Shown here: piece after piece, positions 15,782 to 56,725 of the stretch | Numbering within the stretch: position 1 is the first letter of the stretch | Layout: each line of letters begins with the position of its first letter | Source of the DNA: Candidatus Nealsonbacteria bacterium | GTDB taxonomy: Bacteria; Patescibacteriota; Minisyncoccia; Minisyncoccales; PWPS01 | Length of the DNA stretch: 64,000 nt | Direction: 5' to 3' | Assembly: GCA_003557645.1 (NCBI GenBank) | Contig: PWNV01000014.1 | Span: forward strand, 17,989 to 81,988 | Program-made: the position numbers and the translations under genes | The notes under the pieces: generated by a model | Databases searched by the model: none | What the model was told of the DNA's origin: nothing | What the model saw: the letters and a program-made list of their open reading frames with translations, nothing else

Positions 15782-16201
15782 ATGATTAAAAGGATATTGA
15801 TAATTGCCTGCATTCTCGCCCTTTTTCCTCTTATTTCCTTCGCAAATGGAGAAGAGGGTCTTGTTCCTTGTGGCCCAGGAACCGGTGTGGATTGTCAGTT
15901 ATGCCATCTGTTTGTAATTTTTGGCAATGTTGTTGACTTCCTCATGACACGATTAATCCCTGCAGCAGCCATCATCCTTATAATCTACGGTGGAATCATG
16001 ACCTATGTCCATTCTGCTAACCCCGAAGGATTTTCCTACGGGAAGAAAGTTATCCTTATGGCTATTGCGGGTGTCTTTATCGCTTACACAGCTTGGATTA
16101 TAATCGGTCTTATTCTTCAAGGGTTAGGAATGGTAGAAGACTGGGGATTTCATGATTGGTGGCAAAGCGGCCTTTACACAATAGAGTGTCCTGTCGATTA
16201 G
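15782..16201 (+). CDS. VirB2/TrbC-like pilin-family small membrane protein (signal peptide plus two hydrophobic helices)
   Basis: Signal peptide, GLVPCGPG...CQLCHLF motif, then LIPAAAIILIIYGGIMTYV / VILMAIAGVFIAYTAWIIIGLI helix-loop-helix; same domain at C-terminus of ORF 28084..31224. Confidence 0.55.
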   Translation: MIKRILIIACILALFPLISFANGEEGLVPCGPGTGVDCQLCHLFVIFGNVVDFLMTRLIPAAAIILIIYGGIMTYVHSANPEGFSYGKKVILMAIAGVFIAYTAWIIIGLILQGLGMVEDWGFHDWWQSGLYTIECPVD

Positions 16202-16322: not shown

Positions 16323-16577
16323 ATGCTTACAAAAGAAGAAAAAGAAGAAATATTAAAAGATTACGAAGACACCGGTGGTTCAGAGGCTCAGATAGCCTTG
16401 CTCTCAGCAAAGATAAAGAAACTCTTTCCTCATTTCAAGGAAAGCCCCAAAGACCTGCACTCTAAAAGAGGGCTTTTAGAGGCAGTAAATAAAAGAAGGA
16501 AACTTCTTTCCTATCTCCGTAAAGAAGATGAAGAAAGATACAATAAACTTGTTAAAAAATTGGGCTTAAAAAAATAA
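16323..16577 (+). CDS. rpsO: 30S ribosomal protein S15
   Basis: Conserved S15 sequence; canonical rpsO-pnp linkage. Confidence 0.85.
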   Translation: MLTKEEKEEILKDYEDTGGSEAQIALLSAKIKKLFPHFKESPKDLHSKRGLLEAVNKRRKLLSYLRKEDEERYNKLVKKLGLKK

Positions 16578-16578
16578 T

Positions 16579-17094
16579 ATGCTCATAAAACACAAGGGGC
16601 AGCGCGTGGCAATTTTTATCGACGTACAAAATCTTTACCACTCAGCAAAAAATCTTTATAACTCACGTGTTGACTTTAGCGCAATAGTAGAAAAAGCAGT
16701 AAGCAAAAGAAATCTTATTCGTTCTTTTGCTTATGTGATAAGAACCAAAACTGGTGAAGAAAAATCCTTTTTTGAAGCTCTCACCAATCTAGGAATAGAA
16801 ACCAGAATAAAAGACTTACAAGAGTTTTACGGTGGCCTCAAAAAAGGAGACTGGGACGTAGGAATTGTCGTTGATGCTATCCGTATGTCCATCAATGTAG
16901 ATGCTATTGTTCTTGTTACCGGAGATGGCGACTTCATCCCCCTTGTTGAATACTTAAAAAACAGAGGAAAACGAGTAGAAATAATGGCCTTTGAAAGATC
17001 TGCTTCCTCAAAATTAAAAGAAGTAGCGGATGAATTTATCGATCTTGAAAAAAGTCCTAAGAAATTCTTATTAAAGAAAAAAAGTCATGAATAA
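16579..17094 (+). CDS. NYN-domain (LabA-like) protein
   Basis: VAIFIDVQNLY...IVLVTGDGDFIPLV pattern of NYN/DUF88. Confidence 0.7.
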   Translation: MLIKHKGQRVAIFIDVQNLYHSAKNLYNSRVDFSAIVEKAVSKRNLIRSFAYVIRTKTGEEKSFFEALTNLGIETRIKDLQEFYGGLKKGDWDVGIVVDAIRMSINVDAIVLVTGDGDFIPLVEYLKNRGKRVEIMAFERSASSKLKEVADEFIDLEKSPKKFLLKKKSHE

Positions 17095-19183
17095 ATATAC
17101 TCTCACTCTTGGAAATTCTGATTTAATTGTTTCCTTGGAAAAATTAGCCGAGCAGGCAAACGGCGAGGTGTTGGTTCATTACGGAGACACGGTCGTCCTT
17201 GCTACCGTAACTCTTTCGGACGAAGACACTGAGAAAGATTTTTTTCCTCTTTCTGTAAGCTACGAAGAAAAATTTTACGCTGCAGGAAAGATAAGCGGTC
17301 CTCGCTACACAAGAAGAGAAGGAAGGCCTTCCGACAGAGCTACTTTAATTTCTCGTATGATTGATCGAGCCATCCGCCCTAAGTTTCCCAAAGAACTGAA
17401 AAAAGAAGTACAGATAATCGTTACCTGTCTTTCCTGGGATGAAGAAAATGATCCAGGAGTGCTAGGGATGATTGCTGCATCTCTTGCTCTTGAAATATCA
17501 GACGTTCCTTGGAACGGACCTCTTGGCTCGGTGAGAATAGGAAAAAATGGTGAATATATTTTAAATCCAAGCTCTACAGAAAGAGATGAAAGTGAGATAG
17601 ATCTTATTGTAAGCGGATTTATCAGCAAAGATAACAAGCTCATAACCAACATGATCGAGGGAAGTTTTAATGAAGTAGACGAAGAAGTAGCAGAAAAGGC
17701 CTTTCATTTTGCAGAAGACTCCATAAGACAGCTTTGCGCTTTTCAAGAAAAAATAAAAAAAGAAAAAGGAAAGGAAAAGATTGAGCTCTCTCCTCTTTTT
17801 TCTGACAAAAAAATAGAAAGCATTATCGCAGAAAAAATCAAAGAAGGAATGAAAGATATTTTCACAGAAAAAGAAGGAAGGGGTGATAAAATAAAAAAAC
17901 TTAAAAAAGATATTATTTCTTTTGCAAAAGAAAATTACGAAGACGCAACTGAGAAGAGTTACGCTGTTTCTTGCGTAGACACAGAGGTGGAAAAAGTTAT
18001 AAGAAAAAATATTTTAGAGAAAGAAGATCGTCCCGACGGAAGAAAAATGGACGAGGTAAGAGAAATAAGCACAAGCGTTGCCATTCTCCCTCGTACTCAC
18101 GGATCAGGCATTTTCAGAAGAGGCAAAACCAGATCACTTTCTATTATCACGCTTGGTGCTCCCGGTGAACAGCAACTTATCGAAGAGATGGAAGTTTCCG
18201 GTAAAAAACGTTTCATGCATCACTATAACTTTCCTTCTTATTCAGTTGGAGAAGTAAAACCTATTCGTGGTCCAGGGAGAAGAGATATCGGTCACGGAAT
18301 GCTTGCTGAAAAAGCAATCTTTCCTCTTCTTCCTAATATAGAAGATTTTCCCTACACCATTCGTGCAGTTTCAGAAATCCTTTCGTCTAATGGCTCAACT
18401 TCCATGGCTTCGGTTTGTAGCACCACTCTTGCATTGATGGATGCAGGGGTTCCGATTAAAAGACCTGTAGCAGGAATTTCTATCGGTCTTGTTACGGGAG
18501 ATCGTGGAGATTATAAGATGCTTACCGACATTCAAGGTCCTGAAGATCACTACGGCGACATGGATTTCAAAGTTGCAGGAACAAAGAACGGTATAACTGC
18601 TATTCAAATGGATGTAAAGATAGATGGCATTACGCAGAATATGATTAAAGAAGCTTTAAGCAGAGGAAAAGAAACTCGTTTTTACCTTCTAGAAGAAATA
18701 GCAAAAACGATTGAAACTCCGAGAAAAGAGCTTTCTCCTTACGCCCCTCGTATTGTTGTGATTAAGGTTGATCCAGAAAAAATAGGTGTCATAATAGGTC
18801 CTAAAGGAAAAACAATAAATGAAATAATGGAGGAAACAAATGTTTCTATTGATATTGATGATTCTGGCCTTGTTTCTGTCACTTCGGAAAATGAAGAAGA
18901 TATTGAAAAAGCTGTCTCTCGAATCAAAAACCTTACTCGTGAGGTTAAGGAAGGAGAAATCTTTGAAGGTAAAGTAATTAAAATATTTGATTTTGGAGCA
19001 GTAATAGAAATATTCCCTGGGCAAGAGGGTCTTTGTCATATTTCCGAGATCGCGCCACGAAGAGTACAGTCAGTAGAGAGTGAGTTAAAGAAAGACCAAA
19101 TCGTTCCTGTAAAAGTAATTAAAGTAGAAGAAAATGGGAAAGTAAGTCTTTCCATTAAAAGAGCAAAAGAGGATAAAAATTAA
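17087..19183 (+). CDS. pnp: Polynucleotide phosphorylase
   Basis: Two RNase PH domains, KH and S1 domains; 698 aa. Confidence 0.9.
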   Translation: MNKYTLTLGNSDLIVSLEKLAEQANGEVLVHYGDTVVLATVTLSDEDTEKDFFPLSVSYEEKFYAAGKISGPRYTRREGRPSDRATLISRMIDRAIRPKFPKELKKEVQIIVTCLSWDEENDPGVLGMIAASLALEISDVPWNGPLGSVRIGKNGEYILNPSSTERDESEIDLIVSGFISKDNKLITNMIEGSFNEVDEEVAEKAFHFAEDSIRQLCAFQEKIKKEKGKEKIELSPLFSDKKIESIIAEKIKEGMKDIFTEKEGRGDKIKKLKKDIISFAKENYEDATEKSYAVSCVDTEVEKVIRKNILEKEDRPDGRKMDEVREISTSVAILPRTHGSGIFRRGKTRSLSIITLGAPGEQQLIEEMEVSGKKRFMHHYNFPSYSVGEVKPIRGPGRRDIGHGMLAEKAIFPLLPNIEDFPYTIRAVSEILSSNGSTSMASVCSTTLALMDAGVPIKRPVAGISIGLVTGDRGDYKMLTDIQGPEDHYGDMDFKVAGTKNGITAIQMDVKIDGITQNMIKEALSRGKETRFYLLEEIAKTIETPRKELSPYAPRIVVIKVDPEKIGVIIGPKGKTINEIMEETNVSIDIDDSGLVSVTSENEEDIEKAVSRIKNLTREVKEGEIFEGKVIKIFDFGAVIEIFPGQEGLCHISEIAPRRVQSVESELKKDQIVPVKVIKVEENGKVSLSIKRAKEDKN

Positions 19184-19196
19184 TATTTTCCTTTCC

Positions 19197-21440
19197 ATGG
19201 AAGAAGACACAAACATCACACAAGAGGTCCGAACAATGAAAAAAGACCTCGCTGTTGCCCGGGAGGGGGGCGAAGAAAGTGTCGTTCCTTCTCCCAGTTC
19301 TAAAAAATCTCCTCAACCCAGAGATGACGAAGAAAGAAGAAGAGAAGAAGAAGTAATAAGAAACGAAGAAAGAAGGAAGGAAGAGAAAAAGCGCAAAGAG
19401 CGACTAGCTGAAGAAGAAAAAATAAGAGAGATTGAAAAAGAGAAAATTTCAACATGGATAAATGATATTCAAAAATCCAAACAAGGGATTAGAGGCAAGA
19501 TTGCAAAAGAGATAGAGTCTTTAAAGAAGGAAATTGAAAATAAAATTCGCGAAGAGGAGGAAAAGGGTCGTAAACTGGAAGAAATACTACAAAAAAAGGA
19601 GTCGTTTGAGACAAAGGAAAATCTTTTCAAAAAGAGCATTCTTAAGCTAGAAGAAAAAAAAGATGCACTAAAACTAAAAGAAGCGAGTTTTAAAAAGCAA
19701 ATCAAAGAAATAGAGAAGATAAAGAAAGAATCAGAAAAAAAAGAAGATATCATCATAAAAGAAGAAGAGTTAAGCGAGAGAAAAAGAGAAGTAACTCAAA
19801 AAAAATGGGACACAGAAAAAGATCTCATACGAACTAAGAAAACAACTCATGCTATTGACTTGAAAAAACTCTACCTTTCCCTTCAAGTAGGTAGAGAAGA
19901 GAGAGAAGTCGAGAAATTAAAAACAGAAAGAGAAGCTTTGGGTCTTCAGCTTTCTATTCTTGTTCCTCAAAACAAAATTTCTTTTCTAGAAGAAAGGATC
20001 AACCTCTATGATCAAATATTAGGCCTTTTTCAAGCTCGGAAAAAAAGAATAAAGGATAGATTAAGAAAAGTAGTTCAGGCAGATAAGAATATCAAAGAAA
20101 GGTTTGTTGATATAAAGGAAAAGCTTGCACAAACAAGCAGCAACGAAGAATTGGAATCCCTTGAAAACGAGAGATGGAAAATTGAAGAGAAAAAGAGACA
20201 GATTAAAGAAGAGGCTTGGGAGTGGCAAGAAACAATAAAGAAAACAGAAGAAAAAATAAAAATAATTGAAACCAAAAAGAAGTCTGCGGAAGAGAAAACT
20301 CTTTCCCTGCGAAAAGAAATACAGCAAAACGAAAAATCTCTGCAAGAAAAAAGAGCCCTGATAGAGACTCTTCAAAATAAAGAAAAGAGCTTAAGAGAAA
20401 AAGAAGAGGAGGACATCAAAGAAAAGAAACGTCTCATCGTCCTTAAGAGGAGAGAATTTCTCCTAAAAGACCCTGTTTACAGGAAAAAGATTGTTGCAAA
20501 ACGAGTAGATCTTTTAAGCAAGATCTGTAGCGCTATAGAAGAAAAAAATAAAATTAAAGCAGAGCTACGAAGTCTTTTAGAAAAGGAAAGAGAAATTGAA
20601 TCTGAATTAAAAGAAACCCAAAAAAAGGAAGATGAGCTAAAGAAAGAGAAAGAAGAAGTGGAGAGAAGAGAGAGGATAGCAAAAGACCCGCAAGAAGTCA
20701 GAGAAATGGAAGAAAAGAGGTGGAAGATAGGAGAAGAAAGAAGATCTGTAGAAAAAGAGGTTCTAGAAATTCAAGAAAAATTAAGTCCTTTTACAGAGAA
20801 AAGAAAAGAAGCTGAAAAAGAATACGCTGTTCTTTCAGAGAAAAAAACAAAAATAATTAAACAAGAAGCTTCTCTTGCGTCTAAGTTACGAAGATGGATT
20901 AAAGCAGAAGAGCAAAGAAAAGAGATAGAAAAAAGAAGATCTCAGATAAACAGGAAAAAAGAAAATATTTCTAATGAAAAGGAAGAAAAAGAAAAAGGTA
21001 TAGAGGGAGTTGAGAAAAAATTGAACAATATACTAAAAAGGGAGAGTGAAGTAGAAAAGGACGTTCGATGGATAGAAGAAAAAATACAAGCCATGAACAC
21101 CGAATCAAAAGAAAGAAGAAATGAAGTTAAAAAAATGTGGCAGTTAGAAGATAAAAGAAGGGAGATAGAAAAGATGAAATGGGAGCTACAAGAAAAAGTA
21201 GATGAAAGCGGGAAAGAAAAAGAAAAAATTGAACAACAATATCAACTCCTTCTAGATGAAGAAAGTCGCCTGCTCAAGGAGAAAGAAGGCTTTAAAGAGA
21301 AAGAAGCACTCCTATCACTAGAAAAAGAAAAAGAGGAGATAGAGAAGATGATGGAAGAAGAAGACAGCGAAGTTCTTGAGAAAAAATTCGTAGAAATCGC
21401 ACATCAAATGATAAGCGAACTTCAAAAAACGGTCTCTTAA
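19197..21440 (+). CDS. Giant Lys/Glu-rich coiled-coil protein with Trp-containing periodic repeats
   Basis: Repeats such as ENERWKIEEKKRQIKEEAWEWQE, KRWKIGEERRSVEKE, KMWQLEDKRREIEKMKWELQEK; no enzymatic motifs. Confidence 0.6.
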   Translation: MEEDTNITQEVRTMKKDLAVAREGGEESVVPSPSSKKSPQPRDDEERRREEEVIRNEERRKEEKKRKERLAEEEKIREIEKEKISTWINDIQKSKQGIRGKIAKEIESLKKEIENKIREEEEKGRKLEEILQKKESFETKENLFKKSILKLEEKKDALKLKEASFKKQIKEIEKIKKESEKKEDIIIKEEELSERKREVTQKKWDTEKDLIRTKKTTHAIDLKKLYLSLQVGREEREVEKLKTEREALGLQLSILVPQNKISFLEERINLYDQILGLFQARKKRIKDRLRKVVQADKNIKERFVDIKEKLAQTSSNEELESLENERWKIEEKKRQIKEEAWEWQETIKKTEEKIKIIETKKKSAEEKTLSLRKEIQQNEKSLQEKRALIETLQNKEKSLREKEEEDIKEKKRLIVLKRREFLLKDPVYRKKIVAKRVDLLSKICSAIEEKNKIKAELRSLLEKEREIESELKETQKKEDELKKEKEEVERRERIAKDPQEVREMEEKRWKIGEERRSVEKEVLEIQEKLSPFTEKRKEAEKEYAVLSEKKTKIIKQEASLASKLRRWIKAEEQRKEIEKRRSQINRKKENISNEKEEKEKGIEGVEKKLNNILKRESEVEKDVRWIEEKIQAMNTESKERRNEVKKMWQLEDKRREIEKMKWELQEKVDESGKEKEKIEQQYQLLLDEESRLLKEKEGFKEKEALLSLEKEKEEIEKMMEEEDSEVLEKKFVEIAHQMISELQKTVS

Positions 21441-21464
21441 ATAAGCTTTCCTAAAAGTAATTCT

Positions 21465-24365
21465 ATGCAAAACGATACAAAACCAATCACTGCCGAACTA
21501 GAAGAAGAATTGTCTGTATTAAAAAAACTAGAAGAAAAGCTAGAAGAGTTAAAAGTTAGTCTTGTTGGTGCTGCAGAAAAAAAAGAACAAATCAAAAAGA
21601 GCTTGGACCTTATAAAAGAAAAGGAAAAAGAGATAGAAGAGAGAGAAAGAGAACTTGAGAAAAAAGGAGAGGAAGCACAGAACGAGAAAGAGAAAAGAGA
21701 GGCCGGAGAAGAAAGATGGAAGGTAGAAGATAAGCGCAAAGAAATTGAGAAAGATCGATGGGATTGGGAAAATAAAATTAAAGAGGTAGAAGAGAACATC
21801 TCCTCTCTAGAAAAAGAGAAAGAAGCTACTATCGAAAAAAAGAAGGAGGCAGAAGAAAAGGTTGATCAGCTTCAAAAAAACGCAGAACAGGAGGATGAAG
21901 AAAGTATCAAAACGGCAATAGAAAGAAAGAAAGAGGAAGAGTCCTTGGCTCTTGAAGAAAAGAAAACCTTAGCTGTGAAAAAGGAGAAGGCAAAGGAGGT
22001 TTTAAAAGAAATAAAGGAAAAAGAAAAGGAAATAGAAAGAACCGAAAGAGATCTAGAAGGAAAAGAAGAGGCAGAAAAAGATTTTTCTGAAAAAAAGAAA
22101 CTTAAGGAAAAAAGGTGGGAAGCAGAAGATCAGCGTAAAAAAATAGAAGAAGAAAGATGGAAAATTGAAGAAACTGTCTCCTCTATAAATGAAAAAATTG
22201 AAAAGAAAAATACTAAACTAAGCAGACTAGAAGATGAGATCGAATCACTGCAAAGACAAAAAGACGAAGCAGAGGTAATTGCAGGAATCAAAGAAACGCC
22301 AAAACCAGAGGCTGATCTTGAGAAAAAGGAAAAAGAACCTTTAACCGGAGATCTTGAAGAAAAAATAGTCGAGAAGAAGGAATCTCTCTCTGAAGAAAAA
22401 GAAACTCTTTTTGCAAAAAGAATGGAGCTCTCCGACAAGCTTCGTGAAACAAAGAAAAAAGAAAGAGCGACAGAAAAAGAAAAAATAAAAATTGAGAGAG
22501 AAGAAACAGCCGTAAAAGGAACAAGTAAAGAGAAAGAGATAACTGAGAAAAAATGGGCGGTTGAGGAAGAAAGAAGATCTACAGAACAGATAAGATGGGA
22601 TTTAGAGAAGGAGCTAGGAGATGTTAATAAAAGAATAGAAGAAATCAAGAGAAAAGAGAAAGTTATTAGAAAAAAGGAAGAGGAACTAGCAAAAAGAAGA
22701 GAAGAGAGAGAAAGAGAAAGGGAGATAAGGCAAAGAGAAAGAGAAGTAACTTCTAAACTCCAAGACAAGGATCTCTCTTTAACACAACAAAAGAAGCTCC
22801 AGCTAGAAAAAATGGGTCTCCTAAAAGAAAAGCTAAGTGATCAGTTCTATCGATACAAAGAAGAAAAAAAACTTTTAGAAATTGAAATTGACAAGCTCTC
22901 ACAAAAGGAAAAAGAAAACGAGAGAAAGTTGGAAGAGGCTTATGAAGAAGAAAACTACGCAGAGAAAAAAAAGAATGAGATTGAGGCAAAGGAAAAAGCA
23001 ACACACAATGTAAAAGAAAAAGAAGAAATAGAAAAAAGCAGATGGGAAGCAGAAGAGGAAACGAGAGAAGCTAAAAGAGTTGTCTGGGATATTAAGGAAA
23101 GATTGAACGAAATAAAGAAAAGAAGTCGCAGAGCACACACAAAAAAATGGAAAGTTTCCACCAAGGAAAAGAGAGTTCAAGAAAAATGGCACAGCCTCGC
23201 TCGTAAAGAAGAAAGAGCTAGGGTTTCTCTGGAAAAAGCAAAAATAAAAGAAAAGATTAAATCTATTGAGAGTGAAAGGAGGACTCTTGACCTAGAAATA
23301 GTTAAGACAAAGGAAAGAAGAGATCATTTACAAGAAAAGATCGCTACTGTTATTGAAAAAGAAACTGTTATTGAAAAGAAAAAGAAAGAAATCGAAGAGG
23401 AAGAAACAGCCGCCAAAAACCCTGAAGAAAGAAGGGAGAAAGAAAAAGAGAGATGGAGAGTGGAAGAAAAAAGGAGAGAAATTGAGAAAGAAAAATGGTC
23501 ATTACAAGAAAAGATCAAAACAATAGAAAAAGATCTATACTCTTCTGAGCTGCATTATCAGCAAACGCTAAACAAAGAAGAAAACTTAAAGAAGAAAGAA
23601 TCCTCTCTTTCTAAAAAAGAAAAAGAGCTAATAGCCAAAGAAAGCAAGAGAGAGAAAGCTAAAGAGCTAAAAAGATTGCAGGCAATTAAGGGCAAGATCG
23701 AGGAGAAAAAAGAAAGCTTAATTGACGAAGAAAACCAACTAAAAGATTCTCTTAAAGAAATGAAGGAAAAAGTGAAAGGAATGAAGAAGGTTATGCACGA
23801 TATTGAAGAGGAAGAAGAATTCATCGAAGAACCTGAAGAAAGAAAAAAAGTAGAAGAAAAAAGATGGAAAGCAGAAGAAGATAAGCGCGAAACAGAAAAA
23901 AAGATCTGGGAATTAGAAAACAGATTAGCGGAAATTGAAACGGAGAGAAAGGGCTTTGATCTTATTAAAAAAAGAGAATCAGAAATCCAAGCAGAACTAG
24001 AAAAACTAGAATCTCTTTTAAGAAGAGAGAATGATGCTTTTGAAGAAGATTACACTGACGACCTAGAAGATGAGGAGGAAGCCACAGAAGAAATAGATCA
24101 AAGTTTAAGTAAAGAATCTTTTCGAGAAAGAAAAAAGAGAGAAATCGAAGAGGAAGATAGCGATGAAGAAGAAGATTATGAAGATGAAGAAGAAGATTAT
24201 GAAGATGAAGAAGAGGATGATGAGGAGAGAAAAGACAAAGATGAAGAAGAATATTATGAAGATGATGAAGAAGACGATGAGGAGGATGATGAAAAAACTC
24301 CATCAGAGTCAGAAGAAAAAGAGAAGAAAGATCCTAATATCTCTGACCTAGATTTTAAGTTTTAA
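21465..24365 (+). CDS. Giant Lys/Glu-rich coiled-coil paralog (six about 140-aa-period W repeats) with poly-acidic DYE tail
   Basis: ERWKVEDKRKEIEKDRWDWE, KRWEAEDQRKKIEEERWKIE, KKWAVEEERRSTEQIRWDLE, SRWEAEEETREAKRVVWDIK, ERWRVEEKRREIEKEKWSLQ, KRWKAEEDKRETEKKIWELE; same frame as upstream ORF, separated by one TAA. Confidence 0.6.
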   Translation: MQNDTKPITAELEEELSVLKKLEEKLEELKVSLVGAAEKKEQIKKSLDLIKEKEKEIEERERELEKKGEEAQNEKEKREAGEERWKVEDKRKEIEKDRWDWENKIKEVEENISSLEKEKEATIEKKKEAEEKVDQLQKNAEQEDEESIKTAIERKKEEESLALEEKKTLAVKKEKAKEVLKEIKEKEKEIERTERDLEGKEEAEKDFSEKKKLKEKRWEAEDQRKKIEEERWKIEETVSSINEKIEKKNTKLSRLEDEIESLQRQKDEAEVIAGIKETPKPEADLEKKEKEPLTGDLEEKIVEKKESLSEEKETLFAKRMELSDKLRETKKKERATEKEKIKIEREETAVKGTSKEKEITEKKWAVEEERRSTEQIRWDLEKELGDVNKRIEEIKRKEKVIRKKEEELAKRREEREREREIRQREREVTSKLQDKDLSLTQQKKLQLEKMGLLKEKLSDQFYRYKEEKKLLEIEIDKLSQKEKENERKLEEAYEEENYAEKKKNEIEAKEKATHNVKEKEEIEKSRWEAEEETREAKRVVWDIKERLNEIKKRSRRAHTKKWKVSTKEKRVQEKWHSLARKEERARVSLEKAKIKEKIKSIESERRTLDLEIVKTKERRDHLQEKIATVIEKETVIEKKKKEIEEEETAAKNPEERREKEKERWRVEEKRREIEKEKWSLQEKIKTIEKDLYSSELHYQQTLNKEENLKKKESSLSKKEKELIAKESKREKAKELKRLQAIKGKIEEKKESLIDEENQLKDSLKEMKEKVKGMKKVMHDIEEEEEFIEEPEERKKVEEKRWKAEEDKRETEKKIWELENRLAEIETERKGFDLIKKRESEIQAELEKLESLLRRENDAFEEDYTDDLEDEEEATEEIDQSLSKESFRERKKREIEEEDSDEEEDYEDEEEDYEDEEEDDEERKDKDEEEYYEDDEEDDEEDDEKTPSESEEKEKKDPNISDLDFKF

Positions 24366-24378
24366 GCCTCATCAAGCT

Positions 24379-25710
24379 ATGAATATTGTAACCTCAATTG
24401 AAACAGCAAGAAAAAAAGGAGCTTCTGATGAGAAGATCTTACTTGAAATAAGGAAACAAAATCCAGAGAAAGAAGACTTTTTTATTAAAGCAGAACACCG
24501 AGGAGCAAGCGCTTCTCATATTTTAGATGAGATAATTAGGCAAAATAAGGAAGAGAAAATAGAAGAAGATGCCACTTCTATTAGAAGAAGAAAAGAAGAA
24601 GAAAGAAGGAGAAAATTTTTGCAAAAAATTGAGGAGAAGGAAAAAGGAGAAAAGGAAGGTTTCGCTACTCCTTCCTCGGAAGCATTTACTCCTTCTTCTG
24701 TAACTCCTTCTCCAGAACAAGAAGAGATTTCTCCCCCTCTCTCTCCACCTCAAAAACCGCCCGAGAAAGAAAAACAAGTAAATCGTATACTTGTTATCAT
24801 AGTCATTCTTACTATTTTTGCTCTTTCTGTTGCTTTTCTTTATAGAATTTTGTTTCTGACCTCTCCTCCTGACGTCGAGCCAGTGGAAATAATTATAGAA
24901 GTTCCTATCCCCCGTGCACCTGAATCACTGGTAGAAATTGATGAAGAAAAAGATGATATTGTTAGATTCCCCGCTATAAACAGCAATGAACATATCATTG
25001 CTCTACGCAAAGCGATGGAAGAGATGGAGAGAGGAGAAATAACACGTATAATTATTGAAGACCAAAGAGAAGAAGAGCCACGTATTTCTGATCTGGAGGA
25101 TTTTTTTCGTCTTTTTAATATAAGGTCTCCCGAGAAGTTTTTTGAGATGATAGAAAAAGACTTTACTCTCTTAATATACACAAAAGAAGAGAAAAATCGC
25201 CTAGCCTTTGTAGTAAAAGCTAAAGAAAGAGACTTGGATCTAGAATGGTCTTTAATGAGGCCGTGGGAAAGATCTATCGAAAGGGATTTTCGTGGTCTTT
25301 TTGCTTTTCTGGAGATAGAAGTTGAAGATACTAGTGAAGAGTTAAATAATTTCATTTACGAAAGGCCTGGCAGAAGTAATCCTGTTATTCGTTATCGTAG
25401 CATCCCCTCAGATAAAAACCTTCTTATAGTTAAAGACTCTACTTCTGTCTATTCTGATACTGATAACTTTATCGAGATAGGAAGAACTTCGCATGAAGAA
25501 AAATATGAAGAATTAAAAGTAGAAGATGGTTGGTACAGTATTGCCATAAACAATACTGAAGGGTGGATAGAGGAAGATGCGGTTATAGAGGTAGAACCAT
25601 TCGGAGAGAACGTTGGCCTGTACTACTCTATTATGGAAGGGCGTATGGAGGATAAAATCGTCTTTTCTACTTCCCTTGAAAGTATCAAAGTAATAATTGA
25701 CCGTTTATAG
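24379..25710 (+). CDS. Hypothetical bitopic membrane protein (charged N-domain, Pro/Ser linker, TM, C-terminal globular domain)
   Basis: TM ILVIIVILTIFALSVAFLY in the middle; C-terminal GWYSI...GWIEEDAV reminiscent of SH3b-like fold. Confidence 0.45.
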   Translation: MNIVTSIETARKKGASDEKILLEIRKQNPEKEDFFIKAEHRGASASHILDEIIRQNKEEKIEEDATSIRRRKEEERRRKFLQKIEEKEKGEKEGFATPSSEAFTPSSVTPSPEQEEISPPLSPPQKPPEKEKQVNRILVIIVILTIFALSVAFLYRILFLTSPPDVEPVEIIIEVPIPRAPESLVEIDEEKDDIVRFPAINSNEHIIALRKAMEEMERGEITRIIIEDQREEEPRISDLEDFFRLFNIRSPEKFFEMIEKDFTLLIYTKEEKNRLAFVVKAKERDLDLEWSLMRPWERSIERDFRGLFAFLEIEVEDTSEELNNFIYERPGRSNPVIRYRSIPSDKNLLIVKDSTSVYSDTDNFIEIGRTSHEEKYEELKVEDGWYSIAINNTEGWIEEDAVIEVEPFGENVGLYYSIMEGRMEDKIVFSTSLESIKVIIDRL

Positions 25711-25713
25711 CTT

Positions 25714-26073
25714 ATGAATAAAACTCAAATTGAAAGTTTGAAAAGAAAACTGGAAGAAGACAAGGATTCTCTTCAGAAAACTTTACAACGCTTCGCTAAA
25801 AAAGGAAGTAAGCTCGAAGGAAATTGGGAAACCAACTATCCCGACTTTACTCCTAATGAATCAAGTAAAGAAGAGGAAGCCGATGAAGTGGAAGAGTACT
25901 CTGCTTTAATTAAAATAGAACATGCCCTGGAAGTCAGATTAAAAAATGTCAACGAAGCCTTAGAAAAAATGAAAAACGGTAATTATGGAACTTGCGAAAG
26001 ATGCGAAAAAGAAATTCCTTATGAAAAACTTTCTTTGGTTCCAGAAACAAAGACCTGCACCGATTGCGTATAG
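25714..26073 (+). CDS. DksA/TraR-family C4 zinc-finger protein
   Basis: Coiled-coil N-half, C-terminal CERCEKEIPYEKLSLVPETKTCTDC. Confidence 0.65.
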   Translation: MNKTQIESLKRKLEEDKDSLQKTLQRFAKKGSKLEGNWETNYPDFTPNESSKEEEADEVEEYSALIKIEHALEVRLKNVNEALEKMKNGNYGTCERCEKEIPYEKLSLVPETKTCTDCV

Positions 26074-26087
26074 ATCTTCTTAAAAGA

Positions 26088-26113
26088 AAATCCCCTCTTT
26101 AGGGGGTTTTTTG
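26088..26113. terminator. Bidirectional rho-independent terminator
   Basis: cccct-cttt-agggg hairpin followed by GTTTTTT, between convergent genes. Confidence 0.6.
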
Positions 26114-26119
26114 TTAGAG

Positions 26120-27124
26120 CTATCTAACTTGTCCTCCAACCGGGATGTGAGAAAAAGGATTCCTTATTCTTCTGGAAAGAATATCAAAGTGAACATGGCA
26201 TCCTGTTGAAAGTCCCGTAGTTCCCATTGTTCCAATTTGCTGTCCTTGATAAACTCTCTCTCCCACTCCAACATGCATTCCTTGTAAGTGTCCATAAAAA
26301 GCAACTACACTTCCATGATTGATCTTGATAAAGTTCCCCGCTGGCCAGGTATTGTAGGCTCTCTCTATTACTACTCCAGATTGCACGGCATAAATCGGGG
26401 TTCCACAGTTGTTAGCAATATCAACTGCATTGTAGTGGTGGGGTCCCTGTGTAAGGATTCCTGTTGCTGGAGGAATAAAGTGCATTGATGGAGTTGGCCT
26501 TGGTACAGTAGTTCTTGGAATTGGCGGCTGTTCCCCTCCTGGAACAATTATTAAGTCTCCTGGATAAATATTCTCAACGTATAGATTATTAAATTTTTCT
26601 ATCTCCTCCTTTTTTGCTTTATGTCTCTCTGCAACTTCAGACAAAGTATCCCCTGCTTCTACATAATACATCACTCCCGTAACAGGGAGGATTGTTAATT
26701 CTTCTCCCGGTTTTATCTTATCTCCCTTTATGTCGTTTGCCCATCTTATCGTGTCTTTGCTAATTCCAAACTTATCGGCTACATTATCAAGGGTATCTCC
26801 TTCTTCAACTTTATAAGAGATTATGCTGTTTCTTTGATCTATCCCGCCTCCTCTACCCATCACTTGAGAAGTTACAAAATAAGGAGTGGAATCAGAGAGA
26901 AGAGTGTTTTCGTGAGTAAATACAATCGGCTTAAAATCATCAAAAGATTCTCCTTGATAAGAAAGAAATATATCAATATCAGAAACAAAGCTCTCCTCTG
27001 AATAATCTTTCCTGTCTATAAAAAAACTTGAATCTGTAAAATGATTTAACGCTAAAAGAGAGAACACAAAAAGAAGGAAAAACTTACTTTTCCCCTTAAT
27101 GGCTACAAATCTACCTTGGCTCAA
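26120..27124 (-). CDS. LysM-domain M23 family peptidoglycan endopeptidase
   Basis: Two LysM repeats (GDTLDNVADKFGISKDTIRWAN; GDTLSEVAERH), M23 motifs HHYNAVD and HVHFD. Confidence 0.85.
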   Translation of the reverse strand: MSQGRFVAIKGKSKFFLLFVFSLLALNHFTDSSFFIDRKDYSEESFVSDIDIFLSYQGESFDDFKPIVFTHENTLLSDSTPYFVTSQVMGRGGGIDQRNSIISYKVEEGDTLDNVADKFGISKDTIRWANDIKGDKIKPGEELTILPVTGVMYYVEAGDTLSEVAERHKAKKEEIEKFNNLYVENIYPGDLIIVPGGEQPPIPRTTVPRPTPSMHFIPPATGILTQGPHHYNAVDIANNCGTPIYAVQSGVVIERAYNTWPAGNFIKINHGSVVAFYGHLQGMHVGVGERVYQGQQIGTMGTTGLSTGCHVHFDILSRRIRNPFSHIPVGGQVR

Positions 27125-27226
27125 AGATTTTCTTTTCGAGCCTCTTTTTTTTGAAGTATAAATAGCTTTAAATCTGTTATAAGCTGTGGTATTATTCTAC
27201 TAATTCAAGGCGAAAAGTCAATATAA

Positions 27227-28072
27227 ATGACCCTAACAAACAAAGACATTCTAAAAGAAGCTCTCGATAATTACTCCATAACTCCCAAAAAATCACTGGG
27301 ACAAAACTTCGTTATAGATAAGAATGTTATCAAAAAAATTTGTGACTGTGCCGATCTTTCAAAAGAAGATCAAGTCCTTGAAATCGGTCCGGGAACAGGA
27401 GCCCTTACCCTTTCTTTAGCGGAAAAAGTAACTCACGTCACCGCAATAGAAAAAGATAGGAGATTGATGCCCTTACTTCTTGACCTAACAAAAGAGACCA
27501 AGAACATAAGTGTCGTACATAGTGATATCTTGGATTTTTCCATTCCTTTCAAAAAGTATAAAGTTATAGCAAATCTCCCTTACTACGTTACTTCTCCTAT
27601 AATAAAAAAATTCTTAGAAGAATATTTTCCTCCTGAGATGCTTGTTCTCACTGTTCAAAGAGAAGTTGCAGAGAGAATAATAGCGAAACCTCCTAAAATG
27701 AGCCTCTTGTCTGTCTCCGTACAATTTTATGCCGATGCCAAGATAATATCTCACATTTCAAAAAACTCTTTCTGGCCACCTCCTTCTATCGAGTCTTCTA
27801 TTATAAAAATTACTCCAAAGAAAAATTCCTTTGATAAAGCTTTTAAGGAAGATTTTTTCCGCATCCTTAGAAAAGGATTTTCTCATCCCCGAAAACAAAT
27901 ACTAACCAATTTCCAGCTTGACAGAGAAAAGAAAAGTGGGGTAGACTTTACAAAACGAGAGATAATCTGTAACCTTATTAAAAAAAGTAACGTTGATGCA
28001 AGAAAGAGGCCCGAAAGCCTAAACATAGATCAATGGAAATCCCTAACTAAAAATCTTTCAAAAATCATCTAA
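27227..28072 (+). CDS. rsmA: 16S rRNA (adenine1518/1519-N6)-dimethyltransferase
   Basis: SLGQNFVIDKNVI, LEIGPGTGALT SAM motif, NLPYYVTSPI. Confidence 0.85.
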   Translation: MTLTNKDILKEALDNYSITPKKSLGQNFVIDKNVIKKICDCADLSKEDQVLEIGPGTGALTLSLAEKVTHVTAIEKDRRLMPLLLDLTKETKNISVVHSDILDFSIPFKKYKVIANLPYYVTSPIIKKFLEEYFPPEMLVLTVQREVAERIIAKPPKMSLLSVSVQFYADAKIISHISKNSFWPPPSIESSIIKITPKKNSFDKAFKEDFFRILRKGFSHPRKQILTNFQLDREKKSGVDFTKREIICNLIKKSNVDARKRPESLNIDQWKSLTKNLSKII

Positions 28073-31000: not shown

Positions 31001-31224
31001 TTTTCCCAGTTGCTCTTGTTTTAATGGTTTTAACTACTGGTGCTTTGTTTTCGTTCGCTTCACCTTTGGGACCAAGCGTACTAGCAAGAGTAAAACTGTT
31101 ATGGAAAGGAGTAGGAATTGGTTTTGTTGTTCTTTTCTTTGGTTGGATTATTTTAACAATAGGTCTGTCAATGATAGGATACGACGCAGGTATCTACGGT
31201 CCGTGGTGGCAAATCAACTTTTAA
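28084..31224 (+). CDS. Giant secreted multidomain protein: Cys-rich N-domain, Pro-rich linker, M23 peptidase, four FN3-like WRVxxC repeats, C-terminal VirB2-like pilin/membrane domain
   Basis: Signal peptide; DYHTGIDFF...HLHWD M23 motifs; repeats FAWRVAACED / FIWRVKSCYD / YSWTVKTCAD / YNWRVRSCLD; C-terminal GLVPCG...CQLKHLF plus two TM helices matching ORF 15782..16201. Confidence 0.75.
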   Translation: MKKLFLLSALVCFLALSFNFVLADDPPKCTPKCECIYAETEPEHAGCGFPECGGVVIEYWYDTRCGTGFCYEVENESNGPWEDARPECNWGWSCHPGCLDLPTPDYYWADPGETIKQKDYPIASQYPYDETPNERVYLPVKLGWDHIRGWMHPTGPKSYRIQIDGTTRDYPPPYSYPPADPSDPDPPGGPGPSPPAEGFLTWPVDNIFNVSDYYAQDRRAASFPYLTDYHTGIDFFGGNVPIYAAGNGEVVRVNRSLQAGMGRWVLIKHPGITSTDGRTVLTRYLHLKSIDPNLNEGDMVTAGQQIGIMGGTGSSENSYAIHLHWDVCFGSCRYSNWPNEFDDPLNYITRDQRWADFIEARRSHHNHGRENYYWPGTVPIYISNKDTDPFDLYNTPPPTTSLNSSSSSCSLVTNDSLPSNENNTSFLSELSSSFVLTSNSLEITLEECLRTNRFIADKCLLRSDYNHNWRVQGCCDTECNSCHPTCWSEYDFITDEAPEPIEPYDPSWAGDYGMAGGHHNPLGFQDANSKWCDPENEDDYKGYLLLAFKEINGNMVCHPDRLRPDGVCRPILVRDDNPVPIHRGPPPTEIINIREDLFNEIGEIFAWRVAACEDHKMEDCSDYSQKWRLIVGDTIKNPHDFQPANDPEGETPIGIYPDATFRWNWPFGAHSFWFQLAVDNENQDVIIEELLTTNSFTVPAATLGIENRFIWRVKSCYDEDGENCLEEWTENIHFTTTGRPPNLEETAVPPDGSEEVTIPLTIEWESVPGAQSYIFRIDGEERRVSSEKIHLNYPQLKTGTEYSWTVKTCADPGGSAFCGGFWSPEVKFTTLVLQPPTNPSPEDNSTLFTDTRSINASWSKARGANYYEYEISYPGGETESDIISGTSFYVNLFDLGTYNWRVRSCLDSNCEDSSAFSNWSFTYEEIEADGVGLVPCGRAYDSPSTPWNEREPCQLKHLFILFKILTDFVLWNLFPVALVLMVLTTGALFSFASPLGPSVLARVKLLWKGVGIGFVVLFFGWIILTIGLSMIGYDAGIYGPWWQINF

Positions 31225-43193: not shown

Positions 43194-43369
43194 AAGTTGT
43201 GGAAAAGATGTAAAAAAGATGAATATAATTAAAACTTCTTTTTTTCTCCTTATTTATCCCCTTTTCTTTTTTCCTTTTTTACCACTTTTCTTCAATTATT
43301 TTCCCCACCTTATTTAAGTTTAAAAACTAAATTAATAACATCTTTAATAATAACAATAAATTTAAAAGT
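43194..43369. promoter_or_regulatory. Second DnaA-box cluster between dnaA and dnaN (bipartite origin)
   Basis: tgtggaaaa (43198, reverse box), tttatcccc (about 43253), ttttcccca (43310); AT-rich. Confidence 0.55.
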
Positions 43370-56646: not shown

Positions 56647-56651
56647 GCATG

Positions 56652-56725
56652 TGCGCGTGGATGGACTCGAACCATCGACCTCAGACTTATAAGATCTGCG
56701 CTCTCACCGACTGAGCTACACGCGC
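56652..56725 (-). tRNA. tRNA-Ile (anticodon UAU)
   Basis: Perfect cloverleaf gcgcgtg...cacgcgc, anticodon loop cuUAUaa. Confidence 0.7.

What the first reader, a model, noticed from the sequence alone, without database searches (positions are those of the whole stretch)
19197..24365. Two tandem giant coiled-coil proteins (747 + 966 aa) with periodic Trp repeats, same frame, separated by a single TAA
Both ORFs are over 50% Lys+Glu+Arg, predicted as essentially continuous coiled coil. They carry a recurring module of consensus E-K-R-W-K-x-E-E-x-K-R-x-I-E-K-x-K-W-x-L-Q-E-K about every 140 residues (six copies in the second ORF, three in the first). The second ends in a poly-acidic (EEEDYED)n tail with a 21-nt tandem duplication. 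The two ORFs are in the same reading frame. Only one TAA, plus 24 nt without stops, separates them. So they may be a single 1,720-residue protein interrupted by a stop (error, readthrough, or recent split). Architecture and size resemble bacterial intermediate-filament-like or crescentin/FilP-type cytoskeletal proteins rather than any enzyme. They are immediately downstream of rpsO-pnp and upstream of a membrane protein and a DksA/TraR-like gene.
Basis: seen in the sequence. Interest (0 to 1): 0.7.

Follow-up and report, generated by a model that had tools for sequence, protein, structure and literature searches.

The report
Expanded, split coiled-coil arm protein
Two real, giant, helix-only cytoplasmic proteins in an ultra-small (Patescibacteria) bacterium are the hugely expanded, split-off inner arm of a conserved cell-wall-anchored membrane protein, and they are built from a repeat module that no database describes.

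Summary
ORF1 (747 aa) and ORF2 (966 aa) are in one frame, separated by one TAA plus 24 stop-free nt. They carry 3(+1 weak) and 6 copies of a ~115-aa module with an R-W-x13-W core, and ORF2 ends in an acidic tail with an exact 21-nt duplication.

It is not an error or a recent break. A relative (L163, PNPase 80% identical) has the same two ORFs (54% and 59% identical), with the stop at the same position, again in frame, followed by an ATG.

Even so, the two ORFs descend from one gene. ORF1 keeps the family's N-terminal IRTMxKDI motif and ORF2 keeps its C-terminal ISDLDFKF peptide, and both sit on a single 501-aa protein in locus L008.

The module defines an undescribed family with no Pfam, NCBIfam or PDB match (461 cluster representatives). 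Members normally have exactly two modules in front of a TM helix, a conserved ectodomain ("domain X") and peptidoglycan-binding or hydrolase domains. In Patescibacteria the gene after pnp usually encodes this membrane protein with no modules.

AlphaFold predicts long antiparallel helices joined by tight turns, not an intermediate-filament-type rod.

Best reading (inferred): a variable-length cytoplasmic spacer docked on wall-anchored ORF3.

The parts
16323..19183 (+). Upstream operon genes: rpsO (16323-16577), NYN-domain gene (16579-17094) and pnp (17087-19183)
   Evidence: Translations. NYN Pfam hit at 1.1e-38. The same trio precedes the family gene in L001, L163 and L166.
19197..21440 (+). 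ORF1, 747 aa, 90 kDa, pI 8.9, no TM segment. It corresponds to the N-terminal part of the ancestral gene.
   Evidence: It is 53.7% identical and colinear end to end with the 752-aa protein of L163.
19227..19250 (+). N-terminal family motif VRTMKKDL (ORF1 aa 11-18); family consensus IRTMxKDI
   Evidence: Consensus of 52 full-length members. A regex for the motif hits most family members and many module-free pnp-downstream proteins.
19617..19949 (+). Degenerate module (ORF1 aa 141-251)
   Evidence: Weak HMM match: -0.4 bits here and 10.2 bits in the L163 orthologue.
20022..20366 (+). RW-W module, ORF1 aa 276-390
   Evidence: Homologue-only HMM, 41.9 bits.
20568..20888 (+). RW-W module, ORF1 aa 458-564 (second Trp replaced by Leu)
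   Evidence: Homologue-only HMM, 46.9 bits.
20991..21347 (+). RW-W module, ORF1 aa 599-717
   Evidence: Homologue-only HMM, 49.1 bits.
21438..21464 (+). In-frame TAA (21438-21440) plus 24-nt stop-free spacer before the ORF2 ATG
   Evidence: The homologous TAA, a 12-nt spacer and an ATG, also in frame, are present in L163.
21465..24365 (+). ORF2, 966 aa, 117 kDa, pI 5.1, no TM segment. It corresponds to the C-terminal part of the ancestral soluble arm.
   Evidence: It is 59.1% identical to the 959-aa protein of L163.
21573..21914 (+). RW-W module, ORF2 aa 37-150
   Evidence: 60.8 bits.
21960..22277 (+). RW-W module, ORF2 aa 166-271
   Evidence: 58.2 bits.
22398..22751 (+). RW-W module, ORF2 aa 312-429
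   Evidence: 45.9 bits.
22890..23246 (+). RW-W module, ORF2 aa 476-594 (with an extra W-x12-W at aa 562/575)
   Evidence: 34.9 bits; Trp positions.
23304..23657 (+). RW-W module, ORF2 aa 614-731
   Evidence: 81.0 bits. Part of the AlphaFold2 model with pLDDT 92.
23703..24032 (+). RW-W module, ORF2 aa 747-856
   Evidence: 39.5 bits. Part of the AlphaFold2 model.
24057..24335 (+). Poly-acidic tail of ORF2, including the exact 21-nt tandem duplication at 24163-24204
24336..24362 (+). Conserved C-terminal peptide NISDLDFKF, the presumed docking peptide
   Evidence: The same peptide type ends the soluble proteins of L163 (DISDLDFKF), L008 (NLSDLDFKI), P0052/L166 (DISDIDLKF) and P0136 (ISDSDVKF).
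24379..25710 (+). ORF3, 443 aa, the membrane partner. It has a cytoplasmic helical N-terminal domain (aa 1-91), a disordered linker, a TM helix (aa ~129-164) and extracellular domain X with an SH3b-like insert (aa ~336-410).
25714..26073 (+). DksA/TraR-type C4 zinc-finger protein, last gene of the operon
   Evidence: PF01258 at 1.7e-8. The same position is occupied in L001, L008, L163 and L166.
26092..26106 (.). Terminator-like GC hairpin with T runs on both strands, closing the operon
   Evidence: No terminator-like site on the + strand lies between pnp and dksA apart from one inside ORF3.
26120..27124 (-). Convergent LysM-LysM-M23 peptidoglycan peptidase, a conserved neighbour
   Evidence: Pfam hits. 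The same neighbour is present in L008 and L163.

Best explanation
Shown by the analyses:
- ORF1 and ORF2 are two genuine cytoplasmic proteins without TM segments, encoded in a tightly packed run of genes (rpsO-NYN-pnp-ORF1-ORF2-ORF3-dksA).
- Together with ORF3 they are the pieces of one ancestral gene.
- That gene is the Patescibacteria-wide 'gene after pnp'. It encodes a single-pass membrane protein with this layout: an N-terminal IRTMxKDI motif, a cytoplasmic insert of variable length, a charged linker, one TM helix, extracellular 'domain X', and then peptidoglycan-binding or hydrolase domains.
- The insert is made of a previously undescribed ~115-aa module. Most loci have none, a large subfamily has exactly two, and this lineage has nine to ten.
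- In this lineage the gene is cut into three cistrons. ORF1 holds the motif plus 3-4 modules. ORF2 holds 6 modules, an acidic tail and the C-terminal ISDLDFKF peptide. ORF3 holds a helical N-terminal domain, the TM helix, and domain X with an SH3b wall-binding insert.
- The cut between ORF1 and ORF2 is old and maintained.

Predicted:
- Each module contributes a tight turn placed just before an E-x2-R-W / E-x2-R-R / E-x2-R-W heptad ladder.
- Successive ~130-residue helices are joined by tight turns. By inference they run antiparallel and are zipped by conserved Arg/Glu/Trp contacts.

Inferred mechanism:
- The array is a stiff cytoplasmic spacer or scaffold of adjustable length.
- It holds the N-terminal motif, taken to be a docking site for a still unknown cytoplasmic partner, away from the membrane.
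- The other end is fixed to the cell wall through ORF3.
- ORF2 is re-attached to ORF3 non-covalently, its C-terminal peptide binding the ORF3 N-terminal domain.
- ORF2 is translated from its own ATG, probably by reinitiation 24 nt after the ORF1 stop.
- How ORF1 is held to ORF2 is not known.
For: Single-gene origin and a maintained split:
- L008 has pnp, then a 501-aa protein (NIRTMKKDI... two modules ...NLSDLDFKI), then a 605-aa membrane protein, then dksA, then LysM-M23.
- L001/P0002 has all parts fused in one 999-aa protein at the same position.
- L163 repeats the three-cistron layout of the window. Its proteins are 752, 959 and 437 aa and 53.7%, 59.1% and 62.6% identical. It has the same module count, the same stop position and the same frame. 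pN is 0.23-0.26 with pS saturated.

Family definition:
- An exhaustive profile search found 461 representatives at E<1e-3 and 234 at E<1e-10.
- 143 of the best 151 have exactly two modules, usually followed by one TM helix 100-250 aa downstream.
- Ectodomains among 52 full-length members: PG_binding_1 in 13, GH3 in 10, Amidase_2 in 2, PG_binding_3 in 2, SH3_3 in 1. Three members carry PilM instead.
- There is no Pfam, NCBIfam or PDB sequence match for the module.

Variable insert:
- Among the pnp-anchored loci, 40 encode a domain-X protein with no modules, often with the IRTMxxDI motif close to the TM helix. About 12 have two modules and one has four.

Structure:
- AlphaFold2 on two modules gives pLDDT 92.4 and three helices (2-40, 44-175, 181-260).
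- Near-invariant positions across 269 modules are R49, W50, E53, R56, E60, R/K63 and W64.
- Heptad periodicity is z = 7-9.

Docking inference:
- The C-terminal [IL]SD[LI]D[FL]K[FI] peptide and the ORF3-type N-terminal domain co-occur in all four syntenic loci where the arm and the membrane protein are separate genes (window, L163, L008, L166).
- Both are absent from about 95 fused members.

Wall anchoring:

Operon:
- Intergenic gaps are 3-24 nt, and the only clean terminator follows dksA.
Against: - No member of the family has any experimental characterisation, so spacer or scaffold function is inference from architecture alone.
- The 3D arrangement of nine to ten modules is unknown. It could be a side-by-side ~20-nm bundle or an extended zigzag. 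Only two modules were modelled, pTM was 0.56, and I had no coordinates to inspect.
- The partner of the IRTMxKDI motif is unknown.
- Docking of ORF2 on ORF3 rests on co-occurrence in four loci. In L168 a soluble family protein with a similar C-terminus sits next to an MscS channel instead. Several two-module soluble proteins have no domain-X gene adjacent.
- Nothing identified here links ORF1 physically to ORF2.
- The shared frame of ORF1 and ORF2 in both genomes, with spacers of 24 and 12 nt, leaves a small opening for readthrough.
- The large protein libraries do not contain ORF1, ORF2 or their L163 orthologues. The rarity of such expansions therefore cannot be quantified.
Confidence: 0.55

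Rival explanations
1. One 1,721-residue protein. The TAA at 21438 is a sequencing or assembly error, a fresh nonsense mutation (pseudogene), or is read through or recoded so that ORF1 and ORF2 are made as one chain.
For: The ORFs share a frame, with only one stop and 24 stop-free nt between them. L163 also keeps the frame with a 12-nt spacer. ORF1 lacks the family's C-terminal peptide and ORF2 lacks its N-terminal motif. No Shine-Dalgarno sequence precedes ORF2.
Against: The stop lies at the homologous position in a genome whose orthologues are only 54-59% identical, so it is old. Both halves stay under purifying selection. TAA is the most used stop codon in the window (34 of 54). The spacers differ in length and sequence (ISFPKSNS versus GFWL). 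An ATG is retained within 4-8 codons of the stop in both genomes, although Met is only 0.6-1.2% of these proteins. No gene inspected in this region has a Shine-Dalgarno sequence, so its absence before ORF2 says nothing.
Confidence: 0.07
2. An intermediate-filament-like cytoskeleton (crescentin, FilP or Scy type). ORF1 and ORF2 would form parallel coiled-coil dimers that self-assemble into filaments shaping the cell.
For: Heptad periodicity is strong. The proteins are large, have no enzymatic domain and no TM segment. Generic coiled-coil structural matches include tektin and SMC arms.
Against: AlphaFold2 predicts three helices joined by tight turns every ~137 residues, with high confidence, instead of an uninterrupted rod. 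There is no Pfam Filament or other IF-like hit at E<=1. In 143 of 151 relatives the same module occurs just twice, mostly as the tail of a membrane protein. Most orthologous loci have no modules at all, which is hard to square with an essential filament.
Confidence: 0.12
3. A membrane-remodelling or membrane-stabilising coat of the PspA/Vipp1/ESCRT-III kind, built from helical hairpins.
Confidence: 0.05
4. A compositional artefact: long open frames that arise by chance in purine-rich, T-poor DNA, not real genes.
For: The coding strand is 71-74% purine, and the antisense strand also shows ORFs of up to 212 aa.
Against: The other two sense frames hold 131 and 133 stops. The module is detected by a profile built only from other organisms, at 35-81 bits against at most 6 bits in shuffles. 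Colinear orthologues exist at 54-59% identity with pN far below pS.
Confidence: 0.01

Closest known systems
FimV / HubP / TspA-type polar hub proteins (from my own knowledge of Pseudomonas FimV and Vibrio HubP)
   Same: A single-pass membrane protein with a peptidoglycan-binding domain outside and a very large, highly charged, repeat-containing cytoplasmic region that acts as a scaffold. There is also a link to type IV pilus machinery: here, 3 of 52 family members carry the modules on a PilM/PilN-like protein inside a pilus locus.
   Different: No sequence similarity. The topology is reversed, with the cytoplasmic part N-terminal here. The wall-binding domains are SH3b, PG_binding_1 or GH3 rather than LysM. 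The repeats are ~115-aa helical hairpin modules rather than short acidic repeats. In the window the arm is a separate gene product, in two pieces.
Bacterial intermediate-filament-like or coiled-coil-rich proteins (crescentin, FilP, Scy)
   Same: Very long, heptad-periodic, highly charged helical proteins without enzymatic domains.
   Different: The predicted fold is three helices joined by tight turns every ~137 aa, not a parallel dimeric rod. The family norm is two modules tethered to a membrane anchor. No sequence or Pfam relationship was found.
Spectrin repeats / EzrA
   Same: Tandem helical repeat units with conserved tryptophans, in which a long helix runs from one unit into the next. EzrA is likewise a membrane-anchored cytoplasmic repeat protein tied to cell-wall growth.
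   Different: The period is ~137 aa with one long helix and one turn per period, rather than a ~106-aa three-helix bundle. Both Trp lie 14 residues apart in the same helix, inside an Arg/Glu ladder. No Pfam Spectrin or EzrA hit was found.
Short cytoplasmic N-terminal tails of single-pass wall enzymes that are recognised by adaptors (for example PBP tails bound by GpsB; from my own knowledge)
   Same: A short conserved motif at the cytoplasmic N-terminus of a single-pass envelope protein (here IRTMxKDI) is the kind of element such adaptors read.
   Different: No adaptor is known here. The motif is unrelated. It can be displaced from the membrane by 0, 2 or 9-10 large helical modules.

Membership tests
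RW-W hairpin-module family (undescribed; defined here) | A ~115-aa module with the core E-x2-R-W-x2-E-x2-R-R-x2-E-x2-(R/K)-W, preceded by an E-rich helix and a short turn | tested here: met
   A homologue-only HMM finds 9 strong copies at 35-81 bits against at most 6 bits in shuffles. Consensus derived from 269 modules.
RW-W hairpin-module family (undescribed; defined here) | N-terminal IRTMxKDI motif on the same polypeptide | tested here: met
   ORF1 aa 11-18 read VRTMKKDL. ORF2 lacks the motif, as expected for the downstream half.
RW-W hairpin-module family (undescribed; defined here) | Exactly two modules per protein | tested here: not met
   143 of 151 relatives have two. The window has 3-4 plus 6, as does L163. 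This is the expansion that makes the locus unusual.
RW-W hairpin-module family (undescribed; defined here) | Encoded directly after pnp and linked (fused or adjacent) to a TM + domain-X wall-associated protein | tested here: met
   Synteny in L001, L008, L163 and L166. ORF3 matches P0002 at E = 4e-12. Domain-X HMM hits.
Intermediate-filament-like proteins (crescentin/FilP/Scy) | Long uninterrupted parallel coiled-coil rod flanked by head and tail | tested here: not met
   AlphaFold2 gives helix-turn-helix segments (2-40, 44-175, 181-260) at pLDDT 92.
Intermediate-filament-like proteins (crescentin/FilP/Scy) | Sequence-family membership (Pfam Filament or similarity to known members) | tested here: not met
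   No Pfam family at E<=1 and no NCBIfam family.
Intermediate-filament-like proteins (crescentin/FilP/Scy) | Cofactor-independent self-assembly into filaments | not testable with these tools
   Requires purified protein.
SMC / Rad50 / MukB | ABC-type ATPase head (Walker A/B) and hinge flanking the coiled coil | tested here: not met
Spectrin repeat / EzrA | A ~106-aa three-helix bundle repeat; Pfam PF00435 or PF06160 | tested here: not met
   No Pfam hit. The model has one long helix and one turn per ~137-aa period.
ESCRT-III / PspA / Vipp1 | A Snf7 or PspA_IM30 domain: alpha1-alpha2 hairpin plus alpha3-alpha5 | tested here: not met
FimV/HubP-type hub | Peptidoglycan-binding ectodomain, single TM helix and a large charged cytoplasmic repeat region | tested here: inconclusive
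   The architecture is analogous: ORF3 has an SH3b fold, one TM helix, and relatives carry PG_binding_1. No LysM domain, FimV signature or homology was found, so this is a functional analogy only.
Programmed stop-codon readthrough / recoding | Leaky stop context, a conserved translated spacer, and no need for a downstream start codon | tested here: not met
   The stop is TAA in both genomes. The spacers are not conserved (24 versus 12 nt). An ATG is retained in both.

The most novel reading that the evidence does not exclude
The RW-W module array is a new kind of bacterial intracellular structural element. It would be a genetically adjustable ruler or 'accordion' made of serial antiparallel helical hairpins. 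It would project a conserved docking motif tens of nanometres into the cytoplasm of an ultra-small cell and mechanically couple it to the cell wall (or, in the PilM-fused relatives, to the pilus platform). The step from 0 to 2 to about 10 modules would then be a natural length series, and the three-cistron form a non-covalently assembled version held together by a peptide-domain dock.
Probability: 0.2. Interest if true: 0.8.

Novelty: new variant of a known kind. Interest (0 to 1): 0.55.

Why it matters
Almost nothing is known about how Patescibacteria (CPR) cells organise their envelope, division or pili. Their genomes lack many classical cytoskeletal and morphogenetic genes.

This locus exposes a conserved, unannotated envelope gene that sits right after pnp across the group. 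It also shows that the cytoplasmic tail of that gene hosts a well-defined, undescribed helical module found in hundreds of protein clusters.

The module's copy number ranges from 0 to about 10, and its extracellular partners are peptidoglycan binders and hydrolases. That gives a concrete, testable handle: a defined module, an N-terminal motif that needs a partner, a candidate peptide-domain dock, and a natural length series. All of these bear on how these tiny cells link cytoplasm and wall.

It is also a clean example of an old gene fission that left two cistrons in the same frame. Annotation pipelines could easily misread this as a pseudogene.

Tried and rejected
- Word-indexed homologue searches with ORF2 and with the module alignment were swamped by low-complexity words and gave only 2 and 1 hits. 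The exhaustive profile search was needed.
- Exact-sequence look-ups of ORF1, ORF2 and their L163 orthologues found nothing in the big collections. I therefore found no independent assembly across the 21438 stop. The only independent contig (L165, Logan SRR490128) covers 24185-27688 at 100% identity.
- PNPase-anchored scans of genomes and metagenomes found no close relative (at most 57% identity). The exception was a 3.5-kb contig (L023, 72%), which ends inside the ORF1-like gene. The informative relative L163 came only through ORF3.
- Classifying the window's modules as 'first-type' or 'second-type', to see whether pairs were duplicated, was inconclusive. Score differences were 2-14 bits with no alternating pattern. 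Only the first module looked clearly first-type and the last module second-type.
- The AFDB fold library was unavailable.
- A PDB sequence search, PADLOC and NCBIfam gave nothing specific.
- The promoter scan was at shuffle expectation, and no gene inspected has a Shine-Dalgarno sequence, so translation signals cannot decide how ORF2 starts.
- Three literature searches found no description of the family.
Full report
**1. The observation**

Both start coordinates are multiples of three. Translating the whole span gives only the internal stop and the terminal stop. The junction reads TCT-TAA-ATA-AGC-TTT-CCT-AAA-AGT-AAT-TCT-ATG.

K+E+R is 48.9% in ORF1 and 53.4% in ORF2. Eight W-x13-W pairs are present, against a mean of 0.16 (max 2) in 600 residue shuffles.

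The open frame is not a by-product of the purine-rich composition. The two other sense frames contain 131 and 133 stops. Hydrophobic residues show a strong 3.5-residue period, with z = 7.4 and 9.3 against shuffles.

The acidic tail (61 D/E in the last 102 residues) contains an exact 21-nt tandem copy at 24163-24204.

**2. The repeat is a real, conserved module**

I aligned ~115-aa windows around the Trp pairs and searched 1.84 billion representative proteins exhaustively. That gave 461 hits at E<1e-3 and 234 at E<1e-10.

An HMM rebuilt from 269 modules of those foreign proteins alone finds six modules in ORF2 (35-81 bits). It finds three in ORF1 (42-49 bits) plus one degenerate copy. The best score on shuffled ORFs is 6.0 bits.

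The family consensus is L...ke.le..L.pIl.kEk.IEee...IEekEk.A...eEkR.iEkeRW.iEekRReiEkeRW..Eeei. Positions R49, W50, E53, R56, E60, R/K63 and W64 are 86-97% conserved. They form a heptad-spaced Glu/Arg/Trp ladder.

Pfam, NCBIfam, PADLOC and a profile search of all PDB sequences give nothing specific. Three full-text literature searches found no description.

**3. What the family normally looks like**

Of the best 151 relatives, 143 have exactly two tandem modules. In most full-length ones a single TM helix follows 100-250 residues later.

An alignment of 52 full-length members shows this layout:
- an N-terminal I-x-T-M-x-K-D-I motif;
- a charged region;
- two modules;
- a linker;
- PKKPS..EK followed by a TM helix (FWYW);
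- a conserved extracellular 'domain X' (TLFIYSQ..G.R.GF ... GICY...YF.FTSS..SM).

Variable wall-related domains follow: PG_binding_1 in 13 of 52, GH3 in 10, Amidase_2 in 2, PG_binding_3 in 2 and SH3_3 in 1. Three members carry the modules on a PilM-like protein instead. One of these, P0001, lies in a type IV pilus locus with a pilin, PilC and PilB.

**4. Synteny shows ORF1, ORF2 and ORF3 are one gene in pieces**

- In L001 the order is rpsO-NYN-pnp, then P0002. P0002 is a single 999-aa protein with two modules, a TM helix, domain X and GH3. A DksA/TraR zinc finger follows. ORF3 aligns to P0002 residues 391-676 at E = 4e-12.
- In L008 the order is pnp, a 501-aa soluble protein, a 605-aa membrane protein, dksA, and a convergent LysM-M23 gene. 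The soluble protein starts NIRTMKKDIERAKKGE, has two modules and ends NLSDLDFKI. The membrane protein starts MGIVESIKKARERGTEDKKILEEIIEQNPSKK...GGASPSQILEEIIRQNKEK, then has a TM helix, domain X and two PG_binding_1 domains.
- The window has the identical order. ORF1 starts ...VRTMKKDLAVAREGGE, ORF2 ends ...NISDLDFKF, and ORF3 starts MNIVTSIETARKKGASDEKILLEIRKQNPEK...GASASHILDEIIRQNKEEK.

The two ends of the single L008 soluble protein are therefore distributed over ORF1 and ORF2.

**5. The split is old and maintained**

ORF3 led to L163 (GCA_003551425.1, PUMP01000059.1). Its PNPase is 79.8% identical to the window's. Its gene order is rpsO-NYN-pnp-752 aa-959 aa-437 aa-dksA-LysM/M23-rsmA-M23.

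- The 752-aa protein is colinear with ORF1 from Met1 to the last residue, at 53.7% identity. Both end ...ELQK(T/V)(V/I)S-TAA.
- The 959-aa protein is 59.1% identical to ORF2. It has the same six modules and ends DISDLDFKF.
- Non-synonymous differences (pN 0.23-0.26) are far below the saturated synonymous ones (pS 0.74-0.78).

So the stop is neither an assembly error nor a recent lesion, and both halves are under purifying selection.

In L163 the spacer is 12 nt (GGTTTTTGGCTC), again in frame, followed by an ATG. The spacers share no sequence. TAA is the commonest stop codon in the window (34 of 54 genes). An ATG is retained right after the stop in both genomes, although Met makes up only 0.6-1.2% of these proteins. 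I therefore favour independent initiation or reinitiation over readthrough. The shared frame could be a relic of the original nonsense event, with roughly a one-in-three chance of surviving one neutral indel.

No gene in this region has a Shine-Dalgarno sequence, so that signal is uninformative. Gaps of 3-24 nt, with a clean terminator only after dksA, indicate one operon.

**6. The modules are an optional insert in a deeply conserved gene**

I scanned every ORF of the pnp-anchored loci with a domain-X profile and the module profile.

- The gene right after pnp encodes a domain-X membrane protein in 47 of the pnp-anchored Patescibacteria loci.
- 40 of these have no module at all, often with the IRTMxxDI motif a few dozen residues before the TM helix.
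- About a dozen have two modules. One (L010) has four, through an extra stand-alone two-module protein.
- Only the window and L163 have nine to ten. L023 (PNPase 72% identical) has an ORF1-like protein colinear over 400 residues, but its contig ends.
- No module was found next to pnp in the Bacillota and Chloroflexota loci returned by the same scans.

**7. Structure**

AlphaFold2 on ORF2 residues 610-870 used 25 homologous two-module segments and gave pLDDT 92.4 and pTM 0.56. It predicts three helices: 2-40, 44-175 and 181-260. The turns fall at KNP and EEPEE, just before each RW-W core. So one ~130-residue helix and one turn correspond to one period. Successive helices separated only by such tight turns must run back alongside each other, that is, antiparallel.

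I had no coordinates. I cannot say whether ten helices stack side by side into a bundle about 20 nm long or form an extended zigzag.

ORF3 (pLDDT 85) has these parts:
- a four-helix cytoplasmic N-terminal domain (aa 3-91);
- a disordered linker;
- a TM helix (aa 129-159);
- an alpha/beta domain X carrying an inserted beta-domain.

**8. How the pieces may be held together (inference)**

The C-terminal peptide [IL]SD[LI]D[FL]K[FI] ends the soluble protein in the window, L163, L008 and L166/P0052. In each of those loci the next gene's product begins with the ORF3-type double G-x-S-x3-IL-x-EI-x-QN helical domain.

A profile of that domain finds it in none of the ~95 fused family members in hand (best E = 0.08). 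The peptide is also absent from them.

Two elements that appear only when the gene is split, one on each side of the break, are best explained as a non-covalent dock. This remains untested. One soluble member with a similar tail (P0136) sits next to an MscS channel instead. I found nothing comparable for the ORF1/ORF2 break.

**9. Interpretation**

What is established:
- identity: a new module family;
- origin: fission of the pnp-downstream envelope gene;
- expansion: from 2 to 9-10 modules;
- maintenance by selection.

What is inferred: the array acts as a stiff, length-adjustable cytoplasmic spacer or scaffold. One end (the IRTMxKDI motif) would engage an unknown cytoplasmic partner. The other end would be fixed, through ORF3, to the cell wall.

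The closest functional analogy is the FimV/HubP type of wall-anchored hub with a long charged cytoplasmic repeat region. There is no homology to it. The intermediate-filament reading of the first stage is not supported by the predicted fold or by the family's usual architecture, though filament formation cannot be excluded without protein in hand.

**10. Verdict**

This is a real and well-defined feature. It is an unusual, expanded and split member of an undescribed but widespread Patescibacteria protein family. It is of moderate to high interest for the cell biology of ultra-small bacteria. Its function is still inferred.

Noticed in passing
window 56651..56725 (-): A tRNA-Ile with anticodon TAT. 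This is uncommon in bacteria, which usually decode AUA with a modified CAU tRNA.
   Followed up: no
window 16579..17094 (+): A NYN-domain (LabA-like) gene is wedged between rpsO and pnp and overlaps the pnp start by 8 nt. The same rpsO-NYN-pnp trio occurs in L001, L163 and L166.
   Followed up: partly
window 15782..16201, 31917..33035, 33066..35306, 38183..40021 (+): Type IV secretion-like genes are scattered around the locus. There are two T4SS_pilin-like membrane proteins, a TraG/VirD4-like P-loop ATPase and an unannotated 746-aa protein. The arrangement is conserved in L163.
   Followed up: no
window 26120..27124 (-) and 28084..31224 (+): Two M23 peptidoglycan peptidases flank rsmA/ksgA: a LysM-LysM-M23 protein and a 1046-aa M23 protein. 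Both are also conserved in L163.
   Followed up: partly
window 41841..46347: dnaA and dnaN, followed by a convergent class A PBP (transglycosylase plus transpeptidase). The window therefore probably lies near the replication origin.
   Followed up: no
window, upstream of 12 genes between 16323 and 33066: No Shine-Dalgarno-like sequence precedes any of the genes inspected. Upstream regions are simply A/T-rich.
   Followed up: partly
window 24379..24558 (ORF3 aa 1-60): The cytoplasmic N-terminal domain of ORF3 is an internal duplication of a ~25-aa helix-turn unit (ARKKGASDEKILLEIRKQNPEK and AEHRGASASHILDEIIRQNKEEK). It has no Pfam match and is found only where the membrane partner is a separate gene.
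   Followed up: partly
L168 4001..6619 (SLDR01000037.1): A two-module soluble family protein ending ISDSDVKF is followed by an MscS-type mechanosensitive channel. It is not followed by a domain-X partner and is not next to pnp.
   Followed up: no
L010 12085..15529: A stand-alone 301-aa two-module protein without the N-terminal motif sits between pnp and a canonical 845-aa family member. This is a second route to more modules per locus.
   Followed up: partly
window 24185..27688 = L165: A Logan assembly of run SRR490128 is 100% identical over 3,504 nt. The same organism is therefore present in that public read set, which could be used to check the stop at 21438.
   Followed up: partly
L023 (PUOA01000041.1): The closest PNPase relative found by the genome scan (72%) is a 3.5-kb contig binned as 'Rhodobacteraceae'. 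Its gene content (pnp plus an IRTM-motif coiled-coil protein) is Patescibacteria-like, so the contig is probably mis-binned.
   Followed up: no
window 35784..37028 (-): An SPFH/Band 7 family membrane protein.
   Followed up: no
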